Shown here in pieces: positions 4,403 through 17,547 of a stretch of DNA of 17,547 bases. The stretch's first letter is position 1. Each line of letters begins with the position of its first letter. The DNA lies in assembly GCA_024404275.1 (NCBI GenBank), contig JAKSQG010000021.1, positions 1 to 17,547 on the forward strand, read 5' to 3'. The notes under the pieces are model-generated. The model made no database searches. It saw only the letters and a list, made by a program, of their open reading frames with translations, and had not been told where the DNA came from. The position numbers were made by a program, and so were the translations under genes. This DNA comes from Clostridia bacterium. GTDB taxonomy: Bacteria > Bacillota > Clostridia > Christensenellales > Aristaeellaceae.

Positions 4403-6409
4403 ATGAAGAAAGGCCTTCGTCTGCTCTGCATCGCGCTGGTGCTGATCCTCGTCGGCAGTATTGCCGCCTCGATCTTCAATACCGGCAACGGTGCGACTAC
4501 CGTTTCCCGCATTTCCTTTGAAGCCGATCACGGCACGCTGAGCGGTCTGCTCTACATGCCCAAGGACGCTTCCGCCACCAATCCCAAGGCGACCATTATC
4601 GTCACCCACGGCTATCTGAATTCTGCTGAAATGCAGGATGCCAATGCCATTGAGCTGTCCCGCCGCGGCTTCGTCGTGCTGGCTCTGGACCAGTATGATC
4701 ATGGTCATTCCGACCTGAACAACGAAGTGTACGGTGGCGACACCTCCTTCTTCGGTGTCTGGCGCCCCTTCTGGAACTACTCCATGTTTGACGCTGTCAA
4801 GTACATGTACAATCAGCCCTACGTCCTGAAGGATGAAAACGGCAATGGTATGATCGGCGTGACCGGTCACTCCATGGGCGGCTTCTCCTCCACCATGGCC
4901 GTGTACATGGACGAGCAGAACTTTGCCACTGCCGGCTATCGTATGATCCATGCCTCCCTGACCGAAGGCTCCGACTTCAGCTACACCGGCATGCTGGGCA
5001 ACACCGCCGCGGTGTTTGATGCCAATGGCGGCGGCCGCTTCAACGGTAAGGTTGCCGCCCATTACGATGAGTTCTTCTTTGCTGCCCCCGGTACCAGCGG
5101 CGTGCGCTATAAGGATTATGTCTCCACTCCCGATGGTATGACCTTCCTGCAGCAGACCGAGCCCGCTACCGCCGGCAAGTGGTATGACACCACCGATGGC
5201 GGCCGCCGCGTCATCTATGAGCCCTCCGAGACCCATCCCTGGAACCACTTCTCCAAGACCACCACTGCCAGCGCTGTTGATTTCTATCTGACAGCCTTTG
5301 AAGGCGCGAAGGGCATCAATGCCGTCGCCGCTGACAATCAGGTCTGGCAGCTGAAAGAAGCCTTTGAGTGTGTGGCTCTGGTTGGCTTCGTGATGCTGCT
5401 CATCGCCGTGGCCTCCCTGCTGATCGAACTGCCCTTCTTCAAGATGGCCAAGAGCGGCAAGCTGCCCGTTCAGGCTTCTCCCAAGGGCGGCATGCTGGCC
5501 ATCACCGTGGTCATCCTGTGCATCGCGATCATCCTGCCCTGCATCGTGTTCCAGCCCCTGATGGATGGCAATGCCACCATTAAGGATATCGTCTTCTATG
5601 CTGCCATCGTGGCTGCTGTGGCCGGTGTTGCCGGCATCGCCCTGAACCTGAAGAACAAGAAGGGCCTCATCGGCGGCTGCCTGAGCATCGTCTCCGGCGC
5701 TCTGCTGGCTCTGGTCGTCAAGACCTCCATGTACGGCGATAACGGCTACTTTACCGCCATCGGCGTCAACTCCATCGCTTACTGGACCATCGGCTGCGCC
5801 CTGATCAGCGCGACCATCCTGAGCACCGTGTACACCTGGATCAAGTCCAAGGACGGTGTGGGTCTGGCTGCCTACGGTATCTCCTTCAAGCCCACTGCCA
5901 TCATCGGCGGTATCTGCACCGGTCTGGTCACCGTGGCCATCAGCTATGCTGTGCTGTTCCTGGTCGACGCCGTGCTGAAGGTGGACTTCCGTATCTGGAC
6001 CTTCGCCTTCAAGACCTTTGACGCCAACCTGGTGCCCGCCATCCTGCACTACCTGCCCACCTTCCTGCTGTTCTACGTGATCAGCACCATCGGTATCACC
6101 ATCAACACCAACACCACCCGCATGAACGGCGCTTGGGGTTATGTGCTGGCGATCCTGCTGAACGCCGGCGGCGGTGTCATCTGGCTGTGCCTGCAGTATG
6201 GCACCCTGTTCAACACCGGTGTTGCCTACTGGCCCGGCTCTGCCCTGTCCGGTATCATGATGTTCGCCATGGTTCCCACTCTGGCCATTGCCGCTATCAT
6301 CAGCCGCAACCTGACCAAGAAGACCGGCAACATCTGGACCGCCGCGGTGCTGAACGCTGTGCTCATGACCATCATGACCATCGCCAACACCATGGTCGTT
6401 TACAAGTAA
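4403..6409 (+). CDS. membrane-anchored alpha/beta-hydrolase fused to a ~10-TM integral membrane domain (function unknown)
   Basis: 668 aa. N-terminal signal anchor (LRLLCIALVLILVGSIAASIF), oxyanion-type HG (VTHGY) and nucleophile elbow GHSMGG (nt 4865-4882). From about nt 5365 there are ~10 predicted hydrophobic helices. Strong RBS. Codon usage resembles the ribosomal genes (CGT/CGC, GGC/GGT, CTG, ATC; almost no CGG/GGG). Confidence 0.85.
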   Translation: MKKGLRLLCIALVLILVGSIAASIFNTGNGATTVSRISFEADHGTLSGLLYMPKDASATNPKATIIVTHGYLNSAEMQDANAIELSRRGFVVLALDQYDHGHSDLNNEVYGGDTSFFGVWRPFWNYSMFDAVKYMYNQPYVLKDENGNGMIGVTGHSMGGFSSTMAVYMDEQNFATAGYRMIHASLTEGSDFSYTGMLGNTAAVFDANGGGRFNGKVAAHYDEFFFAAPGTSGVRYKDYVSTPDGMTFLQQTEPATAGKWYDTTDGGRRVIYEPSETHPWNHFSKTTTASAVDFYLTAFEGAKGINAVAADNQVWQLKEAFECVALVGFVMLLIAVASLLIELPFFKMAKSGKLPVQASPKGGMLAITVVILCIAIILPCIVFQPLMDGNATIKDIVFYAAIVAAVAGVAGIALNLKNKKGLIGGCLSIVSGALLALVVKTSMYGDNGYFTAIGVNSIAYWTIGCALISATILSTVYTWIKSKDGVGLAAYGISFKPTAIIGGICTGLVTVAISYAVLFLVDAVLKVDFRIWTFAFKTFDANLVPAILHYLPTFLLFYVISTIGITINTNTTRMNGAWGYVLAILLNAGGGVIWLCLQYGTLFNTGVAYWPGSALSGIMMFAMVPTLAIAAIISRNLTKKTGNIWTAAVLNAVLMTIMTIANTMVVYK

Positions 6410-7612: not shown

Positions 7613-8545
7613 ATGAAAAGTGTCATGCCGGATTATCTTCCTTCCTTCAAGTGCATCGCGGGGCGCTGCCGTCATACCTGCTGCGCGGGATGGGAGATCG
7701 ACATTGATGAATACTCCCTGGAACGCTGGCGGCAGGTAAAGGGTCCCTTTGGCGAACGCCTGCGGGGCTGCATTGAACAGGACGCCGACAGCGCGCATTT
7801 TTGCCTGCTGCCGGGGGATCGCTGCCCGCTGCTGCGGGCGGACGGCCTGTGCGAGATGATCGTGCAGTTGGGGGAAGACAGCCTGTGTGATATCTGTGCC
7901 GATCATCCCCGCTTCCGCAACTTTTTCAGCGACCGCGAGGAATTGGGGCTTGGGCTTTGCTGTGAGGAAGCCGCGCGGCTGATTCTGACCCGCGAAACAC
8001 CGGTCTGCCTGATGGAAATGGGCGATGAAGCGCTGCGGTATGAAGAAACCGCACTGCTGAGTCTGCGCGCGGAAGCCATCGGGCAGGCACAAGACAGAAC
8101 GCTTTCCATGGAAGAGCGCTTATGCCGCCTGGAGGAGGAAACCGGCGGGGCGGTGTTTGCGACCGGTCCCGAGGCGGCTGCGCTGCTGCGTCCGCTGGAA
8201 CGTCTGGACACGGCGTGGGAGGAGCGGCTGGACTGCCTTGAAAAACAGCCCTCGCTGACCCTTTGCAATCACGCCGATACGCCCCTTGAGCAGCTGTGCG
8301 TGTACTTTTTGTTCCGTCACCTGCCCGGTGCGGCAGAGGATGGCAGGTTCACGGAAAGGCTGCTGATGTGTACCCTGCTCACACGCGTGACGGCGGCGAT
8401 CAGCCGCGGCATGGATGACTTGATCGAAGCTGCCCGGCAGATTTCCGGAGAGATCGAATACTCCGATGAAAACATCGGGCTGATTCTGGACAAGATCAAA
8501 GAAAAAACACAAGATCGATCAGATTTATTCACGATTCTGCCATAA
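7613..8545 (+). CDS. FliB-family (flagellin lysine-N-methylase-like) / YkgJ-like cysteine-cluster protein
   Basis: 310 aa. N-terminal FKCIAGRCRHTCCAGWEIDID (CxxxxCxxxCC-GW-I-ID), then CPLLRADGLCEMI and CDICADHPRF. This matches my recollection of the FliB/UPF0153 Cys-rich signature. The family assignment is from memory and unverified. Confidence 0.6.
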   Translation: MKSVMPDYLPSFKCIAGRCRHTCCAGWEIDIDEYSLERWRQVKGPFGERLRGCIEQDADSAHFCLLPGDRCPLLRADGLCEMIVQLGEDSLCDICADHPRFRNFFSDREELGLGLCCEEAARLILTRETPVCLMEMGDEALRYEETALLSLRAEAIGQAQDRTLSMEERLCRLEEETGGAVFATGPEAAALLRPLERLDTAWEERLDCLEKQPSLTLCNHADTPLEQLCVYFLFRHLPGAAEDGRFTERLLMCTLLTRVTAAISRGMDDLIEAARQISGEIEYSDENIGLILDKIKEKTQDRSDLFTILP

Positions 8546-8639: not shown

Positions 8640-8661
8640 CCTGAGCGCGAAAGGAAACCGC

Positions 8662-9330
8662 ATGCGACACGAAATCAAAAGCCGGCTCACAGCCGCGTAG
8701 GCTGCAGCGGTGCGGGTGCGCCTTCGGGCCATTACCACACTGGACCCGCATGTGCGGGAAGACGGCACCTATGATATCCACAGCGTGTACATGGATACGC
8801 CCACCGACCGTGCGCTGATGGAAAAACAGGTGGGCATGCCGGTGCGCGACAAATACCGCATCCGCTATTACAATGAGGACAGAGAGCATTTTGTCATTGA
8901 GCGCAAAAGCAAGGTGGGGTCGCTGTGTGACAAGGTGGGCTGCAAGCTGACCCGCAATGAGCTAGACCGTCTGCTGGCGGGAGACATCGACTGGATGCTT
9001 CATGACGACAGGCGCCTGCTCCGGGAGGTATGGCTGCGCATGAAAAATGAATTGCTGGCCCCCCGCATGCAGGTGCATTACACCCGGGAACCCGTCATCT
9101 ACGGTCCCGGCAATGTGCGGGTCACGCTGGACAGCAACATCCGTACGGGTCTGTACAATCCCGATTTTTTGACCGAGGGGCTGGTAAGACCCCGCACGCA
9201 GTCGCCGGATTTTGTGCTGCTGTAGGTCAAGTTTGATGCCTATCTGCCGCAGATCATTGCCGATATTACGCAGTGTAACTGCCGCCCCATGTCTTTTTCC
9301 AAATTTGAAGCCTGCCACAGCTATGATTGA
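8662..9330 (+). CDS. VTC-domain (polyphosphate-polymerase-like, triphosphate-tunnel fold) protein. A single frame is interrupted by in-frame TAG at 8698-8700 and 9223-9225: either a pseudogene or recoded.
   Basis: The standard-code ORF is 8710..9225 (GTG start). The same frame continues upstream to ATG 8662 (MRHEIKSRLTAA, then TAG) and downstream after the second TAG (VKFDAYLPQIIADITQCNCRPMSFSKFEACHSYD, then TGA 9328-9330). That gives 222 codons, the normal family length, and restores the family-typical N-terminal RHEIK strand and C-terminal L-x-VK-[FY]-D...FSK[FY]xAC end. Confidence 0.75.
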
Positions 9331-9343
9331 GAGGAATATAACG

Positions 9344-10021
9344 ATGAACAGCCTGCTGAAAGAAATTTTCTCCTGCAACGTGCCGGAAACGGCCCTGGCT
9401 TTTTCTCTGCCGGATTGCCTGATCGTGATGGCGGTCGCCGCATTGCTTGGCGTATTCATCGCCGCCTTGTATAAGGCCACCTATCAGGGTGTGATGTACA
9501 CCATGACCTATGGCGTGACGCTGGTGGGCATGGCCATGATCAGCGCCATGATCCTGCGTGTGGTGACCAGCAATGTGGTGCTGACGCTGGGCATGGTGGG
9601 CGCGCTGAGCATCATCCGCTTCCGCACCTCCATCAAGGAGCCCATGGACATCATGTACATGTTCTGGGCAGTGGGTGTGGGCATCGCCGTGGGCGCGGGC
9701 ATGCTGGGCGTGGCGATCATCGGCTCGCTGGTCATCGGCGCGGTGGTGGTTTTCCTCACCCGCGGACGCACCAACGGCGTGCCGTATATTCTGGTGCTGA
9801 ACGCGCAGGATCAGGCGGCTGAAAACGCTGCGCTGGCGCTGGTCAAGGATCAGGTCAAGCGTATGCGCCTCAAGAGCAAAAGCGTGACCAAAGCGGGCAC
9901 CGAGCTGACGCTTGATATCCGCCTGAAGGAGGAAAACACCGACTTCATGCATGAAGTCGCGGCCATGGAAGGCATTACCAATGCCGTGCTGGTGACCTAT
10001 AACGGCGAATACATGACCTGA
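9344..10021 (+). CDS. DUF4956-domain integral membrane protein (usual partner of bacterial VTC-domain proteins)
   Basis: RBS gagagga/gaggaa precedes ATG 9344 (MNSLLKEIF...); the ORF-track start at 9212 overlaps the VTC gene. It has several TM helices and the signature GALSIIRFRTSIKEPMDIMYMFWAV. It begins 13 nt after the VTC stop. Confidence 0.85.
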   Translation: MNSLLKEIFSCNVPETALAFSLPDCLIVMAVAALLGVFIAALYKATYQGVMYTMTYGVTLVGMAMISAMILRVVTSNVVLTLGMVGALSIIRFRTSIKEPMDIMYMFWAVGVGIAVGAGMLGVAIIGSLVIGAVVVFLTRGRTNGVPYILVLNAQDQAAENAALALVKDQVKRMRLKSKSVTKAGTELTLDIRLKEENTDFMHEVAAMEGITNAVLVTYNGEYMT

Positions 10022-10171: not shown

Positions 10172-10238
10172 TTCAGCAGACTGCTGACCCGAGCAGCGAA
10201 AAAAGGGAATGAATTGTATCCCGAACAAGGAGAAACCA

Positions 10239-11192
10239 ATGAAAAAGAGTTTCCTGCTGGTATTGCTTGTACTGATCGGCTGCATGGCGACGTGCAGCGC
10301 CAGTACGTTGTTTCCTTCCAACGCGCCCTGTGAAAGACCGGAGATCGAAGGTGTCGACGAGGATGGCTATTTGCTGTCGGACGAGGATGAGTTTGTGTAT
10401 GCCGATGCGGAAAACGGCCTGTGGGTGTATGTCAGCAGTGAAATGAGGGTGGAGATCGACCGTTTCAAGGCCAATGACCTGGACCTGGTGTGGCTTTCCG
10501 CCCACATCTGGCAGAAGGAGCCGACCGGCTTTGAAACCTTTTTCAGCAATGAAAAAAAGCCATGGGATGACCATATGAATCAGGAAACGCTGTCCCGACG
10601 CGAGCGGCTGATCTTTTCCTGCAATTCGGACTTTTTCTCTGCCCGACTGGGCGACATACCCGTGGGCATCGTCATCCGTCACGGCAAGGTCATTTCCAAA
10701 AAGACCGCTGCCAGCCGCAGCGGCATTCCCACACTGGACCTGATGGCGTTCTATCCCGATGGCGTGATGAAAACGTACGGTTCGCGTGAATATACGCCGG
10801 ATGCTCTGCTGGAGATGGGCGTGACGGATACCGTCTGTTTCGGACCGATCCTGGTACGCGATGGCGAGCTGAAGCTGGAGTATCTTCAAAATCTGGGGCA
10901 TGCCCGTGAGCCGCGTACGGCGCTTGGCATGATCGAGCCGGGGCATTATGTCTGCATCCTGACCGAGGGCAGAACCAAGGACAGCGAGGGCGTGGAGCTT
11001 TCCTGGCTCGGTCAAATGATGGCAGAGGAAGGCTGTGTGGAGGCGCTCAACCTGGACGGCGGTAAGACCAGTGTGATGTGCTTCATGGGCAACAAGATCA
11101 ACCAAACCGGTCTTCCCGGCAAGGATGAGTATGCCCGCAGAACGACCGATCTGCTGGGCATCGGACATTCCGAAAAGGTGACAAAGCCGTGA
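10239..11192 (+). CDS. phosphodiester glycosidase family (NAGPA/DUF2233-like) lipoprotein, paralogue 1
   Basis: RBS aaggag precedes ATG 10239. Lipoprotein signal MKKSFLLVLLVLIGC (lipobox LIGC). C-terminal motifs GVTDTVCFGPILVRDG, REPRTALG and ALNLDGGKTSVM are characteristic of the family as I recall it. Confidence 0.85.
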   Translation: MKKSFLLVLLVLIGCMATCSASTLFPSNAPCERPEIEGVDEDGYLLSDEDEFVYADAENGLWVYVSSEMRVEIDRFKANDLDLVWLSAHIWQKEPTGFETFFSNEKKPWDDHMNQETLSRRERLIFSCNSDFFSARLGDIPVGIVIRHGKVISKKTAASRSGIPTLDLMAFYPDGVMKTYGSREYTPDALLEMGVTDTVCFGPILVRDGELKLEYLQNLGHAREPRTALGMIEPGHYVCILTEGRTKDSEGVELSWLGQMMAEEGCVEALNLDGGKTSVMCFMGNKINQTGLPGKDEYARRTTDLLGIGHSEKVTKP

Positions 11193-12385
11193 GAAACGTA
11201 AAGAGAAGGTATGGCCTGTATATCGGGGCGATGATGCTGGCGGCGCTTTTCTGCCTGCTGACGGCGGCGGGTAGCGCCCGGGCGGAAGCGGCACGGAACA
11301 TCGTGGATCAATGCCATTTGTACGCCCCGCAGAACACGGAAAAGCTGGGAAACGCCCATGACGGCAACGATTTTACCATGTGGTCGTGCTCCGAGGCGTC
11401 CTATCTGCAGTTTGAGGTGCCCGAGGGGCAGACTGTGCACGGCGTGTACATCAAGTGGGGCATGGATGTGCCCGAATGGCAGATCGTCAAGACGGAAGAC
11501 AGCGCTGAAGTACTGTGCGGCGGCAGCGAGGGTCATGCGCATGAATATAAGACTTGTCTGCTGGAAAGCGGTACCTATCGCTTGAAGTTGACGGCTGCCC
11601 CCGAGGATGGGCGCATGCGTATCCGCGAGATCGCGCTGTATACCGATGGTGAACTGCCGAAGGATGTGCAGGTATGGCAGGTGCCGTCTGACAAGGTGGA
11701 CCTGATGGCCATGCCGGCGCATCCCGATGATGAGCTGCTGTTTTTCGGCGGCACGCTGCCGTATTATGCCGGAGAGCTGAAGAAGGATGTGCTGGTGGTC
11801 TATCCTACGTGCGCGACCTATAACCGCCGTACCGAAATGCTCAATGGCCTGTGGCATTGCGGGGTCAGGCTGTATCCCGTCATCGGACCGTTTGATGATG
11901 AAAAATTCTACACCGCCAATGAGATGTATCGTCATTGGGGCGGCCGGGAAAAGGTGCTGCAGTACTTTACCGAGGTCATCCGCCGTTATCGCCCGGATGT
12001 GATCGTGACCCACGATGTCAACGGTGAGTACGGTCATGGCGGACACATGGCGGTGTGCGCTTCGGTGACCGACGCGGTGACAAGAACGGCGGCGGACGCG
12101 GCGTATGAGACGCAATCGGCACCGTGGCAGGTGAAAAAGCTTTATGTACACCTGTATGAAGAACAGACGCGGGATATGAACTGGGAGATTCCGCTGGAGG
12201 CCTTTGACGGCAAGACGGCCTTTAAGATTGCCGAGGAAGCCTTCCTCTGCCACGAGTCGCAGACGCAGTCGTTCAATATGCATTCGGACGGAAGTTATTC
12301 CTGCCGCCGGTTCGGGCTGGCTTATTCATCGGTCGGCGATGATGTGAACATGGATGACTTTTTTGAAAACATCAACAAGGAGTAA
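11189..12385 (+). CDS. secreted PIG-L/LmbE-family N-acetylglucosaminyl deacetylase with an N-terminal discoidin (F5/8 type C)-like domain
   Basis: The GTG start overlaps the upstream TGA (GTGA), suggesting translational coupling. Signal peptide ends ...AAGSARA-EA. HDGNDFTMW and RIREIALY are discoidin-like. AHPDDE (11717-11734) and GHGGH (HxxH) are PIG-L motifs. The start is uncertain; the alternative is ATG 11231. Confidence 0.8.
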   Translation: MRNVKRRYGLYIGAMMLAALFCLLTAAGSARAEAARNIVDQCHLYAPQNTEKLGNAHDGNDFTMWSCSEASYLQFEVPEGQTVHGVYIKWGMDVPEWQIVKTEDSAEVLCGGSEGHAHEYKTCLLESGTYRLKLTAAPEDGRMRIREIALYTDGELPKDVQVWQVPSDKVDLMAMPAHPDDELLFFGGTLPYYAGELKKDVLVVYPTCATYNRRTEMLNGLWHCGVRLYPVIGPFDDEKFYTANEMYRHWGGREKVLQYFTEVIRRYRPDVIVTHDVNGEYGHGGHMAVCASVTDAVTRTAADAAYETQSAPWQVKKLYVHLYEEQTRDMNWEIPLEAFDGKTAFKIAEEAFLCHESQTQSFNMHSDGSYSCRRFGLAYSSVGDDVNMDDFFENINKE

Positions 12386-12391
12386 ATGCGC

Positions 12392-13342
12392 ATGAAAAAG
12401 CTGGCTGTTTTATTGTTGACGGCGTTGCTGCTGCTTCCGCTCTTTGCCGGGGCAGATGAGATCATTCCCGCAAACGAGAAACATCCGCGCCCCGAAATTG
12501 AAAACGTGGGTGAGGACGGTTATCTTGTGAACGAAGATGATGAGTTTATCTATGAGGATGCCGAGGAAGGTTTGTGGCTGTATGTCAGCAGTGACCTGCG
12601 GGTGGAGATCGATCGCTACACCGCCTCCAACATGCAGCTCATCTGGTATACCGCCCACATCTGGCAAAAGGACGGTGACGGCATGCACACCTTCCTTTCC
12701 AACCCCGCGAAACCTTTTGAAGACCGTATGTGGGTGGAACAGATCGCCCGCAAATATCAGCTGGTGTTTGCCATGAACGGCGACTTCTATGAGGACCGCG
12801 TCGGCAACATGCCCGTTGGCTGCATCATCCGCAACGGCAAGGTCATCAACAGCAAGCCCTCCATCCGCAGTGAGATTCCCACGCTGGACATTCTGGCATT
12901 GTTTTCCGACGGTACCATGCGCTGCTTTGGCGGGCGCAGCAATACGGCGGACGAATATCTGGCGATGGGCGTAACGGATACCATTTGCTTTGGACCCATC
13001 CTCATCCGTGATGGCGCTGTCAATGAAAAACAGCTGGTGGATATGGGCCGAGCGAGAGAGCCGCGTACCGCGCTTGGCATGGTGGAAAAGGGTCATTATG
13101 TGGCAATGCTGGTGGAAGGACGCACGGAAAACAGCATTGGCTCCCGCTACATTGAAACGGCGGAAATGATGGCCAAGGAAGGCTGCGTGGAAGCCCTGAA
13201 TCTGGACGGCGGTCAGACGGCGGTGATGTGTTTTATGGGCACCAAGCTGAACGTGACCGGGCAGTATGGCAAAGGCAGCGAACAGCGCCTGGTGACCGAT
13301 ATTGTCGGCATCGGCCACAGCGTGCAGGTAACGGAAAAATAA
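12392..13342 (+). CDS. phosphodiester glycosidase family (NAGPA/DUF2233-like) secreted protein, paralogue 2
   Basis: RBS aaggag (12377-12382) is 9 nt before ATG 12392; ATG 12386 is the alternative start. Signal peptide MKKLAVLLLTALLLLPLFAGA. Collinear with and by eye roughly half identical to the 10239..11192 product (RPEIENVGEDGYL..., GVTDTICFGPILIRDG, ALNLDGGQTAVM). Confidence 0.85.
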   Translation: MKKLAVLLLTALLLLPLFAGADEIIPANEKHPRPEIENVGEDGYLVNEDDEFIYEDAEEGLWLYVSSDLRVEIDRYTASNMQLIWYTAHIWQKDGDGMHTFLSNPAKPFEDRMWVEQIARKYQLVFAMNGDFYEDRVGNMPVGCIIRNGKVINSKPSIRSEIPTLDILALFSDGTMRCFGGRSNTADEYLAMGVTDTICFGPILIRDGAVNEKQLVDMGRAREPRTALGMVEKGHYVAMLVEGRTENSIGSRYIETAEMMAKEGCVEALNLDGGQTAVMCFMGTKLNVTGQYGKGSEQRLVTDIVGIGHSVQVTEK

Positions 13343-15240: not shown

Positions 15241-17547
15241 TCAATGCGTATTCGCGGAAGTTCTTTTGCGGCGGAACAGCAGCGACGCCGCACCCCATAC
15301 GCCGGTGCCTGCGGCCAGGCACAAAAGTCCATAGCCCCAGGCAGCGCCGGTGAGCATGCCGGTGCTGATCTTGAACAGATTACCCAACACCGCCACAGCG
15401 ATCAGGCTGCCGATGGTCATGAGAGACGCCACCGCGATGCGCAGCTTGCTGACAGGAACACACACGGAGTACAGGGCCAGCAGACCGACACCCAGTGCAC
15501 ACAGCGACGCCAGTACGGAGCACATTTCCGTGGGCAGACCGATCCAATACTCGCCGGCCATGCACAGCAGGGCCGCTACGGCCACAGCGCTGCCGCCCGG
15601 AACAGCCCGGCGCAGCACACGGGCGAGGAAACTGCCCTCAATGCGCTCCTGATTGGGCTCCATGGCCAGGAAGAAGGAAGGAATGCCAAGGGTCAGCGCG
15701 GAGATTAGGGTCAGCTGCACCGGCTGGAAGGGATAAGCCAGGGGCAGCAGCAGCGTCACCAGACTGATGAGGAAGGTCGATAATGTTTTGACCAGAAACA
15801 GCGAAGAAGCGCGGGTGATGTTACCCACCACGCGGCGGCCTTCACTTACCACCTGCGGCAGAAGCGGGAAACCGTCGCCGGGAATCGAGATCTGGGCGGC
15901 GTGACGGGCCGCGTCGGAACCGCCTGCCACAGCAATGGAGCAATCGGCTGCCTTGAGCGCGGGGATGTCGTTTACGCCGTCGCCGGTCATGGCCACGCGC
16001 AGGCCATGGGCTTTCAGGGCTTCCACCAGCAGGCGTTTCTGTTCGGGACTGACGCGGCCGAAAACAGTGGTCTGTTTGCAGCGCTGCTTCAAGGCATCCG
16101 CATCGAGGACAGAGGCATCCACCCATTCACCGTCCAGACCGAGGCGTTTGGCAATGGCGGAAACAGTGCGGGGATCGTCACCGCTGATCAGCTTCAGCTG
16201 TACTCCTTCATGGCGGAAAGCTTCCAGCGTGGCGGCGCAGCCGGGGCGCAGTTCGTCCCGGAGGGCCAGCAGGGCCATGGGGGAGAGCGTACCGCCCTGC
16301 ACCGAGCCGGCGAGGAGCAGCACGCGCAGCCCCTGCGCGGTCAAAGCGTTCTGCTGCTCCTGAAGCGGCGCGGGAAGGTTTTCCATCACAAAGGACGGCG
16401 CGCCCAGTACGATGCGCCGACCGTCCCGCAGGACCACGGCGCTGCATTTCTTTTCGGAGGAGAAGGGCTCGGCGGAGACGATATCCGTGGTATCGGCTGC
16501 CGGGGGACACCAGGCACGCAGCGCATCGAGGGTACCGGTGGCATCATCGAAGGCCGCCAGAAAACGGGAAAGGTCGCTGCGTAGAGAGTCTTCGGAGGTG
16601 TTTACAGGCAATACTGTTTCGACCTCCATACGGCCGGTGGTCAGGGTGCCGGTCTTGTCCAGACACAGAACATCAGCCCGGGCCAGGGTTTCAATGCCGT
16701 ACAGCTCCTGCACCAGCACGTCTTTGCGCCCAAGGCGCACCACGCCGACCATCAACGCAACACTGGTCAGCAGGATCAGACCCTCGGGGATCATGCCCAG
16801 CATGGAAGCGACAGCGGCCGGGACGGCGGCTTTCAGGGCGATGCCGTTGAAAAGGGTCTGCTTCAAAAGAACGAGCAGACCGAGGGGCACCAGGATCATG
16901 CTGACGTAATGCAGCAGCTTGTTCAGATCCTGCATCAGCTGGGATTTGGGGCTGCGGATGGCACGCCCTTCCCGGGTGAGCCCGGCGGCGTAGCTTTCAT
17001 CGCCGACCTTTTCCAGTTCCACAAACAGTGTACCCTCGGTGATGAAGGTGCCGGACAGCGCCCGGTCGCCGGAGGTGCGCAGCATGGGCTCGCTTTCACC
17101 GGTCAGCAGGGATTCATCGATGGCACCGCTGCCCGAGACCACTGTGCCGTCAGCAGGCACCTGATCGCCGCGCCGCAGCACCACAATGTCACCGCGCACC
17201 AGGGCATCGGGGTCGACAGACGTCTCCTCGCCATCCCGCAGCACATGGCATTTGGCACGGTGGAGCAGCTCCAGCCGGGCAATGGTCTTGCGTGCCCGCA
17301 GCTATTGAATGGTGGCAATGAGCGTGTTGGATACAACGACACCCATAAACAACATGTTGCGGTAGCTGCCCACCAGCAGCAGCGCCAGCGCCAGGGCTAC
17401 ATTCAGCGCGTTAAAAAAGGTAAAAAGATTGCCGGCCAGAATCTGCCCGACGGTTTTTCCATGCGTTTGGCTGTGGGCATTGCCCTCGCCCGCGGCAGCC
17501 CGGCGGGCGGCTTCCTCATTGGACAGCCCGCGAAGAGGTTGATTCAT
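15241..17547 (-). CDS. P-type cation-transporting ATPase (HAD-IC, P2-like, PEGL motif). A single frame is interrupted by one in-frame TAG at 17302-17304: either a pseudogene or recoded.
   Basis: The track splits it into 17302..17547 (81 aa) and 15241..17244 (GTG start). These are the same frame; the 19 codons between them (LRARKTIARLELLHRAKCH) are open. Motifs: TGES, PEGL, DKTGTLT, MTGDGVNDIPALKAAD. Total 768 codons. The ATG lies at the window edge (17547), so the start cannot be checked against upstream sequence. Confidence 0.85.

What the first reader, a model, noticed from the sequence alone, without database searches (positions are those of the whole stretch)
8662..9330. VTC-domain gene: a 222-codon frame broken only by two TAG codons that remove both terminal tunnel strands
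Translation from ATG 8662 gives MRHEIKSRLTAA, then TAG, then AAAVRVRLRAITTLDPHVREDG...SPDFVLL, then TAG, then VKFDAYLPQIIADITQCNCRPMSFSKFEACHSYD, then TGA. Under the standard code only the middle piece (8710..9225, GTG start) would be made. That piece lacks the N-terminal R-H-E-x-K strand and the C-terminal L-E-V-K strand. In CYTH/VTC triphosphate-tunnel enzymes these strands carry charged catalytic residues, so it should be inactive. Yet there are no frameshifts or other stops, and both flanking pieces still look like family-consensus sequence. Two identical lesions (both TAG, both at acidic positions) in a 669-nt gene is an odd way to decay.
Basis: partly seen in the sequence, partly recalled or inferred. 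Interest (0 to 1): 0.7.

Follow-up and report, generated by a model that had tools for sequence, protein, structure and literature searches.

The report
Amber codon TAG read as glutamate
In this uncultured Clostridia bacterium the stop codon TAG sits at conserved glutamate positions inside at least three unrelated genes that are still under selection, so it is most likely read as glutamate, a change to the genetic code that I could not find reported for any bacterium.

Summary
The VTC gene (8662-9330) is one 222-codon frame broken only by TAG at 8698 and 9223. It is not a decaying gene.

- **Glutamate positions.** Both TAGs fall where orthologues have Glu: E13 in at least 90% of 32 clade sequences, E188 in all 60 sequences.
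- **Same pattern in other genes.** The window's P-type ATPase has TAG at 17302-17304 (minus strand), where 119 of 119 orthologues have Glu. A conspecific contig upstream of secE has TAG in a SpoVK-like AAA+ gene, where 17 of 17 orthologues have Glu and another strain has GAG.
- **Real and conserved.** The three window TAGs are kept in every independent assembly that covers them (strains about 1-4% diverged).
- **Still under selection.** The "orphan" pieces beyond the TAGs show only synonymous polymorphism (14 of 14 in the ATPase N-piece, 3 of 3 in the VTC C-piece).
- **No other lesions.** There are no in-frame TAA or TGA codons and no disrupting frameshifts.
- **TAG does not terminate.** None of 31 genes in about 38 kb of this species ends in TAG. 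It is 0 of 129 with relatives included, against 15% in other VTC-bearing loci.

Best explanation: UAG is a rare sense codon for Glu in this species. The tRNA(CUA) and the state of RF1 could not be examined. A literature search to mid-2026 found no bacterial UAG-to-standard-amino-acid reassignment.

The parts
8650..8657 (+). Ribosome-binding site (AAAGGAAA) 4 nt upstream of ATG 8662. It marks the true start of the VTC gene, upstream of the first TAG.
   Evidence: Read directly from the sequence. No comparable site precedes the internal GTG at 8710.
8662..9330 (+). VTC-domain (triphosphate-tunnel, polyphosphate-polymerase-like) gene. It has 222 codons and is read through two TAG codons to the TGA stop.
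   Evidence: Pfam PF09359 covers residues 2-218, E 6.4e-31. Full-length 222-aa orthologues are 68-76% identical. pN/pS is about 0.05-0.08 between strains.
8698..8700 (+). In-frame TAG no. 1, codon 13. Orthologues have Glu here, encoded by GAG in L016 and L018.
   Evidence: The TAG is conserved in strains L004 and L015.
9223..9225 (+). In-frame TAG no. 2, codon 188. It is the invariant Glu of the L-L-E-V-K tunnel strand.
   Evidence: E188 is invariant in 60 homologues. Orthologues use GAG or GAA. The TAG is conserved in L004 and L015. It lies in strand 185-191 of the model.
9344..10021 (+). DUF4956 membrane-protein gene, the conserved partner of the VTC gene. Its start lies 14 nt after the VTC TGA stop.
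   Evidence: Pfam PF16316. The same VTC-DUF4956 pair is found in every relative examined.
15241..17547 (-). P-type (HAD-IC) cation ATPase of at least 768 codons, read through one TAG. The window ends at its ATG.
   Evidence: A strong RBS (AAAGGAG) lies just upstream in L104.
17302..17304 (-). In-frame TAG no. 3, ATPase codon 82. It is the Glu of the I-G-T-[VI]-Q-E-L-R-A motif at the end of TM2.
   Evidence: Glu in 119 of 119 orthologues. It aligns to the YQE Glu of solved P-type ATPases. The TAG is present in 7 contigs from at least 6 samples.

Best explanation
In this species (an uncultured Clostridia bacterium, MAG GCA_024500545.1, and conspecific strains in several metagenomes) UAG is not a terminator. 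It is a rare sense codon, most likely for glutamate.

What this means for the genes:
- The VTC gene is translated from ATG 8662 through both UAGs to the UGA at 9328. This gives a normal 222-residue tunnel protein with Glu at positions 13 and 188.
- The ATPase in the window and a SpoVK-like AAA+ gene nearby are made full-length in the same way.

What is shown:
- The TAGs are real and conserved between strains.
- They sit only at conserved Glu positions.
- The gene segments on both sides stay under purifying selection.
- TAG never ends a gene in the 38 kb sampled.
- One site is a GAG/TAG polymorphism between strains.

What is inferred:
- Decoding is by a tRNA with anticodon CUA that GluRS charges with Glu.
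- Release factor 1 is lost or no longer competes, and RF2 terminates at UAA and UGA, the only stops seen.
- The route was codon capture. TAG stops had already disappeared in the wider clade (0 of 98 genes in the sister species and relatives). TAG then re-entered genes of this one species through neutral GAG-to-TAG changes, so far in weakly expressed genes only.
For: 1. Four of four testable in-frame TAGs align to Glu. VTC codon 13: E in at least 90% of 32 clade orthologues. VTC codon 188: E in 60 of 60. ATPase codon 82: E in 119 of 119. SpoVK codon 317: E in 17 of 17.
2. Under random nonsense mutation, using this species' codon usage and its observed substitution spectrum, a stop is Glu-to-TAG with probability 0.074 (0.12 with equal rates). 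Four of four then has probability 3e-5 to 2e-4. CAG-to-TAG and TGG-to-stop would dominate, and none is seen.
3. The three window TAGs are identical in every assembly that covers them. These are strains 96.4-99% identical at the nucleotide level, with transition-dominated divergence.
4. The pieces that would be lost under the standard code are under selection. The ATPase N-piece has 14 polymorphic codons in 7 strains, all synonymous. The VTC C-piece has 3, all synonymous. The VTC middle piece has 16 synonymous and 4 non-synonymous differences.
5. SpoVK alleles in L109 (TAG) and L113 (GAG) differ at 20 nt: 19 synonymous changes plus the GAG/TAG site.
6. No in-frame TAA or TGA occurs in any species-level locus, and the only coding-region indels are one compensating pair in the ATPase.
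7. The 31 genes in this species end in 21 TAA, 10 TGA and 0 TAG. The sister species and clade relatives have 0 of 98, against 66 of 432 in other VTC loci (Fisher 1e-8).
8. Strong RBSs precede the upstream ATGs and none precedes the internal restart codons.
9. No unusual RNA structure lies downstream of any TAG (z-scores -0.8 to +0.9). This argues against a SECIS- or PYLIS-like local signal.
Against: - Only about 38 kb of this genome could be read, giving 4 secure TAG sites plus 1 probable site.
- No tRNA(CUA) gene was found in the fetched loci, and the status of RF1 is unknown.
- TAG is rare, about 0.6% of Glu positions. Inefficient or partial read-through cannot be told apart from full reassignment.
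- TAG-stop scarcity is not unique to this clade. Several more distant Clostridia loci also show none, and those gene calls are crude.
- The SpoVK TAG taken alone could be a very recent nonsense mutation.
- Two large computational screens did not report such a code.
- There is no protein-level evidence.
Confidence: 0.72

Rival explanations
1. Leaky termination. UAG is still formally a stop, but it is read through at a low to moderate level, either by a weak natural suppressor or by near-cognate tRNAs. Only a fraction of full-length VTC, ATPase and SpoVK protein is made, possibly as a way to keep these genes at low expression.
For: TAG is rare and is absent from the 11 translation-related, highly expressed genes sampled. 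Two TAGs sit in one small gene. No tRNA or RF1 data are available. E. coli supE-type strains show that partial suppression is viable (my own knowledge).
Against: Near-cognate reading of UAG mainly inserts Gln, Tyr, Lys or Trp (established knowledge). That would not explain why all four sites are invariant Glu, two of them in catalytic or structural motifs. If UAG were still a working stop it should end some genes, yet it ends 0 of 31 here and 0 of 129 with relatives. No local read-through structure is present.
Confidence: 0.13
2. UAG encodes another residue across the genome: pyrrolysine (as in Pyl-decoding bacteria and archaea), glutamine (as in recoded phages), or a non-standard acidic residue.
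For: UAG=Pyl and UAG=Gln are the only UAG reassignments documented in prokaryotes and their viruses. Genomes that decode Pyl also tend to avoid TAG stops (my own knowledge). The presence of pyl genes could not be checked.
Against: None of the four sites is a Gln or Lys position in orthologues, and all are Glu. The conspecific and orthologous codons are GAG or GAA, and GAG is one step from TAG. If TAG meant Gln, the frequent CAG-to-TAG transition should dominate. A bulky Pyl at the tunnel Glu188, or at the ATPase Q-E-L-R motif, is hard to reconcile with the strong purifying selection.
Confidence: 0.07
3. Ordinary gene decay. VTC, the ATPase and SpoVK are young pseudogenes knocked out by nonsense mutations.
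For: These are accessory genes. Standard-code gene callers split or truncate them in every assembly examined. The SpoVK TAG is present in only one of the conspecific strains.
Against: pN/pS is 0.05-0.08, and the cut-off pieces show only synonymous polymorphism (17 of 17 codons). No disrupting frameshift and no TAA or TGA is seen anywhere. Four of four lesions being the same minor mutational class has probability 3e-5 to 2e-4. The TAGs predate strain divergence and yet no further damage has accumulated.
Confidence: 0.05
4. Sequencing or assembly artefact, for example G-to-T oxidative damage or a consensus error.
For: GAG-to-TAG is a G-to-T change, the type caused by 8-oxoG damage.
Against: The same TAGs occur in independent assemblies from different studies, assemblers and strains: an NCBI MAG, MEGAHIT ENA assemblies, and Logan assemblies of SRR27361835 and ERR6929691. 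G-to-T is a minor class among strain differences.
Confidence: 0.01

Closest known systems
UGA-to-Trp (table 4) and UGA-to-Gly (table 25) reassignments in bacteria (Mycoplasmatales, insect endosymbionts, Absconditabacteria/Gracilibacteria, some Eggerthellaceae)
   Same: A standard stop codon becomes a sense codon across the genome of a bacterial lineage. It is recognised by in-frame occurrences at conserved positions of one amino acid and by loss of the codon as a terminator.
   Different: The codon is UAG rather than UGA and the amino acid is Glu. The release factor expected to be lost would be RF1, not RF2. The genome is not small or AT-rich (56% GC). The new codon is still very rare. According to PMC8629427 and PMC13462651, all known bacterial stop reassignments involve UGA.
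UAG = pyrrolysine, both the context-limited use in Pyl-decoding bacteria and archaea and the archaeal code with all TAG as Pyl (bioRxiv 10.1101/2024.09.30.615893)
   Same: The codon is the same, and UAG is read as sense in a prokaryote where TAG stops are scarce.
   Different: Here the sites are invariant Glu positions reached from GAG, not Pyl sites in methylamine methyltransferases. No pyl genes could be examined. No 22nd amino acid needs to be invoked.
UAG-to-Gln recoding (table 15) in crAss-like, Lak and other gut phages (bioRxiv 10.1101/2021.08.26.457843)
   Same: The amber codon is read as sense by means of a suppressor tRNA(CUA), in gut or rumen ecosystems.
   Different: Those are phage genomes, the amino acid is Gln, and use is often limited to late genes. 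Here it is a bacterial chromosome (the secE-nusG-rplK-rplA neighbourhood) and the amino acid is Glu.
UAR = Glu in eukaryotes: peritrich ciliates (table 30) and Blastocrithidia (PMC12153298)
   Same: The amino-acid assignment for UAG is the same (Glu), presumably through a tRNA-Glu with a changed anticodon.
   Different: Those are eukaryotic nuclear codes in which UAA and UAG change together and eRF1 is altered. Here UAA remains the main terminator (21 of 31 genes).
Engineered RF1-free, TAG-free E. coli (genomically recoded organisms; PMC11903333)
   Same: The inferred state is the same: no TAG terminators, UAG free to be assigned to an amino acid, and RF2 terminating at UAA and UGA.
   Different: That organism is man-made and uses orthogonal tRNA/synthetase pairs. 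This would be a natural counterpart. Loss of RF1 is only inferred here.

Membership tests
Genome-wide stop-codon reassignment (alternative genetic code) | The codon occurs in frame inside conserved genes, at positions where homologues have one particular amino acid | tested here: met
   Four of four TAGs are at Glu: at least 90% of 32, 60 of 60, 119 of 119 and 17 of 17 orthologues.
Genome-wide stop-codon reassignment (alternative genetic code) | Several unrelated genes are affected, and these genes remain under purifying selection | tested here: met
   VTC, the P-type ATPase and a SpoVK-like AAA+ gene are affected, plus a probable site in a PQQ-repeat gene, out of 31 genes. All 17 polymorphic codons beyond the TAGs are synonymous. 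Only about 38 kb was sampled.
Genome-wide stop-codon reassignment (alternative genetic code) | The codon is no longer used as a terminator | tested here: met
   0 of 31 genes in the species and 0 of 98 in the sister species and clade relatives end in TAG, against 15% in other VTC loci. The sample is small, and the calls for the metagenome loci are crude.
Genome-wide stop-codon reassignment (alternative genetic code) | A cognate tRNA with the matching anticodon (CUA) and the identity elements of the new amino acid | not testable with these tools
   No tRNA(CUA) lies in the 38 kb or in any fetched locus. The rest of the MAG could not be read.
Genome-wide stop-codon reassignment (alternative genetic code) | Loss or alteration of the release factor that reads the codon (RF1, prfA) | not testable with these tools
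   No RF gene lies in the fetched loci. Absence cannot be judged without the whole genome.
Pseudogene by nonsense decay | Relaxed selection (dN/dS near 1) after the lesion | tested here: not met
   pN/pS is 0.05-0.08 in VTC and the ATPase, and no amino-acid changes occur in the cut-off pieces.
Pseudogene by nonsense decay | A mixture of lesion types (frameshifts, different stop codons) and strain-to-strain variation in damage | tested here: not met
   Only TAG is seen, only at Glu positions. No TAA or TGA occurs in 20 species-level loci plus the sister-species contig L112, and the only coding indels are one compensating pair in the ATPase.
Pyrrolysine decoding | pylT, pylS and pylBCD genes are present | not testable with these tools
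Pyrrolysine decoding | UAG at known Pyl sites (methylamine methyltransferases), or at positions that tolerate a large Lys-derived residue | tested here: not met
   The sites are invariant Glu in a tunnel strand, a P-type ATPase motif and an AAA+ lid.
UAG = Gln (table 15-like) | In-frame TAG at Gln positions of homologues | tested here: not met
   None of the four sites is Gln in homologues.
VTC / CYTH triphosphate-tunnel domain (PF09359) | Profile match above the curated threshold over the whole domain | tested here: met
   108 bits against a cut-off of 23, over residues 2-218.
VTC / CYTH triphosphate-tunnel domain (PF09359) | Eight-stranded tunnel fold with charged residues on the first and last strands (R-H-E-x-K and E-V-K) | tested here: met
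   The model of orthologue P0003 has pLDDT 91.5. Its top Foldseek hits are Vtc4 structures 3g3r and 3g3q (E 1e-13, TM 0.74). The motifs are invariant. The window protein itself could not be submitted with Glu filled in.
VTC / CYTH triphosphate-tunnel domain (PF09359) | Polyphosphate polymerase or triphosphatase activity | not testable with these tools
   This needs biochemistry.

The most novel reading that the evidence does not exclude
This is a natural bacterial genetic code in which UAG means glutamate. It would be the first reassignment of the amber codon to a standard amino acid in a cellular prokaryote. It appears caught early: a Clostridia clade (possibly near Aristaeellaceae, judging only from the names of ATPase homologues) has purged TAG terminators, and one species-level lineage has begun to use TAG at Glu sites, with GAG/TAG still polymorphic between strains. 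It would be a natural analogue of RF1-free recoded E. coli and a live example of the codon-capture route.
Probability: 0.62. Interest if true: 0.92.

Novelty: new variant of a known kind. Interest (0 to 1): 0.85.

Why it matters
- **Known reassignments.** Stop-codon reassignments reported in bacteria all involve UGA. UAG has been seen as sense only for pyrrolysine, or in phages, where it means Gln.
- **What a UAG=Glu bacterium would add.** It would be a new code table. It would show that RF1-dependent termination can be given up in a free-living-type, 56% GC genome. It would also offer an unusually early stage of reassignment, with few sites, some polymorphic, and relatives that avoid the codon altogether. 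That would let the codon-capture and ambiguous-intermediate models be tested directly.
- **Practical consequence.** Standard-code gene callers truncate or split genes in this lineage. VTC is called as 171 aa, the ATPase as 81 + 667 aa, and SpoVK as 316 aa, and these fragments are already in public protein databases.
- **Possible tool.** A natural tRNA(CUA)/GluRS pair would interest genetic-code engineers.

Tried and rejected
- **In-frame TAGs in other species of the clade.** None is convincing in about 88 genes (L016, L018, L024, L025, L028-L031). The truncated VTC orthologues have other causes: P0036 has ACG in place of the ATG start, and P0038 lies on an indel-ridden contig, L020.
- **G-to-T mutator or oxidative-damage idea.** This was prompted by two G-to-T differences in P0002. 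It is rejected because strain divergence is 72% transitions.
- **tRNA(CUA) search.** ARAGORN and Rfam on the window and the fetched species and relative loci found only tRNA-Arg(CCT) beside the ATPase. An exact scan of viral contigs for a tRNA-Glu anticodon arm carrying CUA gave three chance matches that are not tRNAs.
- **RF1 search.** tblastn over all loci found nothing, which is uninformative.
- **Local recoding signal.** The 100 nt from each TAG onward fold no better than shuffled sequence.
- **Chromosome walking.** The window's own MAG (GCA_024500545.1) could not be read because the file is too large.
- **TAG-stop depletion as a stand-alone argument.** I downgraded it, because several distant Clostridia loci also lack TAG stops.

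Full report
**1. The observation**

It is a 222-codon frame with TAG at codon 13 (8698-8700), TAG at codon 188 (9223-9225) and a TGA stop, with no other lesion. The only standard-code ORF is the GTG-started middle piece 8710-9225, 171 aa.

Pfam VTC (PF09359) matches the conceptual full-length protein over residues 2-218 (E 6.4e-31). Both flanking pieces are therefore genuine VTC termini. An AAAGGAAA ribosome-binding site lies just upstream of ATG 8662, and nothing comparable precedes the internal GTG.

An AlphaFold model of the 76%-identical orthologue P0003 (pLDDT 91.5) has strands at residues 2-9 (R-H-E-I-K) and 185-191 (L-L-E-V-K). Its best structural matches are the yeast Vtc4 tunnel domain structures 3g3r and 3g3q.

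**2. What residue belongs at the TAGs**

A search of the protein collection found many full-length 222-aa orthologues at 68-76% identity. It also found one 171-aa fragment at 98% identity from another assembly. In the alignments, codon 13 is Glu in at least 90% of 32 clade members (Asp in distant homologues). Codon 188 is Glu in all 60 sequences. Orthologues use GAG or GAA at both sites.

**3. The same lesion elsewhere**

The window is a bacterial chromosome segment. It runs secE-nusG-rplK-rplA, a flotillin-like gene, a hydrolase, a metallophosphoesterase, orf310, VTC, DUF4956, NAGPA/PIG-L/NAGPA, a DHODH-like gene and a P-type ATPase.

- **ATPase.** The P-type ATPase on the minus strand (15241-17547) also carries one in-frame TAG (17302-17304, codon 82). 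That position is Glu in 119 of 119 orthologues (motif I-G-T-[VI]-Q-E-L-R-A). It aligns to the Y-Q-E Glu of solved P-type ATPases.
- **SpoVK-like gene.** Walking upstream of secE on a conspecific contig (L109) tested the idea on new sequence. A SpoVK/CbbX-type AAA+ gene there has TAG at codon 317, "GNARGVRNLF*TSIARQADRL". The position is Glu in 17 of 17 orthologues.
- **Polymorphism.** A conspecific strain (L113) has GAG at that site. The two alleles differ at 20 nt, 19 of them synonymous, plus GAG/TAG. The sister species (L112, 92.7% nt identity) has GAA.
- **Probable fifth site.** A PQQ-repeat gene has an evident start (AAGGAG RBS plus ATG) that puts a TAG at codon 30. The three strain differences upstream of it are all at third codon positions. 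No homologue is available to name the residue.

**4. Not an artefact, not decay**

The window comes from NCBI MAG GCA_024500545.1, labelled "Clostridia bacterium". The VTC TAGs recur in L004 (Logan SRR27361835) and L015 (ENA ERZ27247129). These are 96.4% and 96.7% identical to the window, with transition-dominated differences. The 81-codon ATPase N-piece ending in TAG occurs in 7 contigs from at least 6 samples.

Selection persists on the pieces that the standard code would discard.

| Region | Comparison | Synonymous | Amino-acid-changing |
|---|---|---|---|
| ATPase N-piece | polymorphic codons, 7 strains | 14 | 0 |
| VTC C-piece | polymorphic codons, 3 strains | 3 | 0 |
| VTC middle piece | window vs L015 | 16 | 4 |
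| ATPase remainder | window vs L015 | 36 | 8 |

No in-frame TAA or TGA occurs in any of the 20 species-level loci or the sister-species contig L112. The only coding-region indels are one compensating pair in the ATPase.

I modelled random nonsense mutation with this species' codon usage and its observed substitution spectrum. A new stop would be Glu-to-TAG with probability 0.074 (0.12 with equal rates), so four of four has probability 3e-5 to 2e-4. The expected majority classes, CAG-to-TAG and TGG-to-stop, are absent.

**5. TAG as a terminator**

The 31 genes in about 38 kb of this species end in 21 TAA and 10 TGA, and none ends in TAG.

- With proper gene calls, relatives L016 and L018 have 0 of 44 and the sister contig has 0 of 10.
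- With my crude caller, the clade loci have 0 of 88.
- Other VTC-bearing loci have 66 of 432 (15%). Fisher's test gives 1e-8 for species plus sister plus clade. Against the nearest outgroup it is 10 of 121, p = 6e-4.

One caveat applies. Several more distant Clostridia loci also show no TAG stops, so this line of evidence is supportive rather than decisive. The relatives have no convincing in-frame TAG. TAG therefore seems to be avoided across the clade and re-used only in the focal species.

**6. Mechanism**

Shown: UAG is translated through, at Glu sites, without any local RNA signal. Downstream folds have z-scores of -0.8 to +0.9.

Inferred:
- A tRNA(CUA) charged with Glu does the decoding.
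- RF1 is lost or ineffective, and RF2 serves UAA and UGA.
- The history was codon capture. GAG-to-TAG is now a neutral change, and it accumulates in weakly expressed genes. None of the 11 translation-related genes has a TAG.

Neither the tRNA nor RF1 could be examined. The accessible loci contain only tRNA-Arg(CCT), and the MAG itself could not be read.

**7. Rivals**

- **Partial read-through of a still-functional stop** cannot be excluded. It does not explain the exclusive Glu specificity or the lack of TAG terminators.
- **Pyl or Gln decoding** fits neither the aligned residues nor the GAG/GAA ancestry.
- **Pseudogenes and artefacts** are contradicted by sections 3 and 4.

**8. Comparison with what is known**

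The literature tools gave the following.
- Shulgina and Eddy state that all known bacterial stop reassignments involve UGA (PMC8629427).
- Work from 2026 repeats this for UGA-to-Trp (PMC13462651).
- A screen of 2.7 million assemblies and the gTranslate paper list, for UAG, only archaeal Pyl.
- UAG=Gln is known in phages, and UAR=Glu in ciliates and Blastocrithidia.

I found no report of UAG=Glu, or of UAG as any standard amino acid, in a bacterium. I therefore file this as a new variant of a known kind (stop-codon reassignment). Two defining features of that kind remain untested: the cognate tRNA and the loss of the release factor.

**9. Verdict**

- Its suspicion that this is not ordinary decay is supported.
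- The real finding is larger than the VTC gene: a probable UAG=Glu code in one uncultured Clostridia species.
- Confidence is about 0.7 that UAG is decoded as Glu.
- The main residual doubt comes from the small genomic sample and the missing tRNA and RF1 data.

Noticed in passing
L109 2151-2153 (minus strand); gene L109 1974-3101: A SpoVK/CbbX-type AAA+ gene on the conspecific contig upstream of secE has an in-frame TAG at an invariant Glu (codon 317). Strain L113 has GAG there and the sister species L112 has GAA.
   Followed up: yes
L109 about 9646-9830 (same as L005 1653-1832), minus strand: The PQQ-repeat gene probably starts at an upstream ATG with an AAGGAG RBS, which places another TAG in frame at codon 30 ("SSSRPTT*PGEG"). 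The strain differences upstream of it are all at third codon positions. No homologue is available to name the residue.
   Followed up: partly
L016, L018, L024, L025, L028-L031, L112 (relatives); also L001-L003, L033, L034, L040, L041, L063: TAG is not seen as a terminator in any relative of the VTC clade (0 of 98 genes). Several more distant Clostridia loci also lack it, while other VTC-bearing loci use it at 10-40%. The phylogenetic extent of TAG avoidance is unknown.
   Followed up: partly
L104 1-2000 (beyond the window's right end): Upstream of the ATPase lies tRNA-Arg(CCT), followed by a lower-GC segment (41-49% against 56%) that encodes a type I R-M HsdM methyltransferase. It is probably a strain-variable island next to the tRNA. 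Contigs of other strains end at this tRNA.
   Followed up: partly
window 10209-13342: Directly downstream of VTC-DUF4956 lies a NAGPA (phosphodiester glycosidase) / PIG-L-type deacetylase / NAGPA trio with overlapping or abutting stops and starts. Relatives have different neighbours at this place, such as PfkB and MurJ.
   Followed up: no
window 7613-8545: This 310-aa ORF has no Pfam match. NCBI names it flagellin lysine-N-methylase. It is conserved between strains.
   Followed up: no
L021 about 1010-1031 and L022 about 700-721: In one relative the VTC orthologue has ACG where the others have the ATG start ("P-T-R-H-E-I-K"), so gene callers start it 23 codons late. This may be a non-canonical start or a damaged one.
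   Followed up: no
window ATPase around codon 324 (gene positions about 969-972) compared with L015: A pair of compensating single-base indels between strains shifts one codon's worth of frame inside the ATPase without breaking it.
   Followed up: no
L020 (ENA ERZ4902972 contig_29561): This relative's contig has many split genes (PriA in three pieces, DFP and Fmt split). It looks like an indel-rich long-read assembly, so I did not use it as evidence.
   Followed up: no
window 4403-6409: This 668-aa "lysophospholipase" has an alpha/beta-hydrolase match only in its first 175 residues or so. The remaining 490 residues or so have no family match.
   Followed up: no
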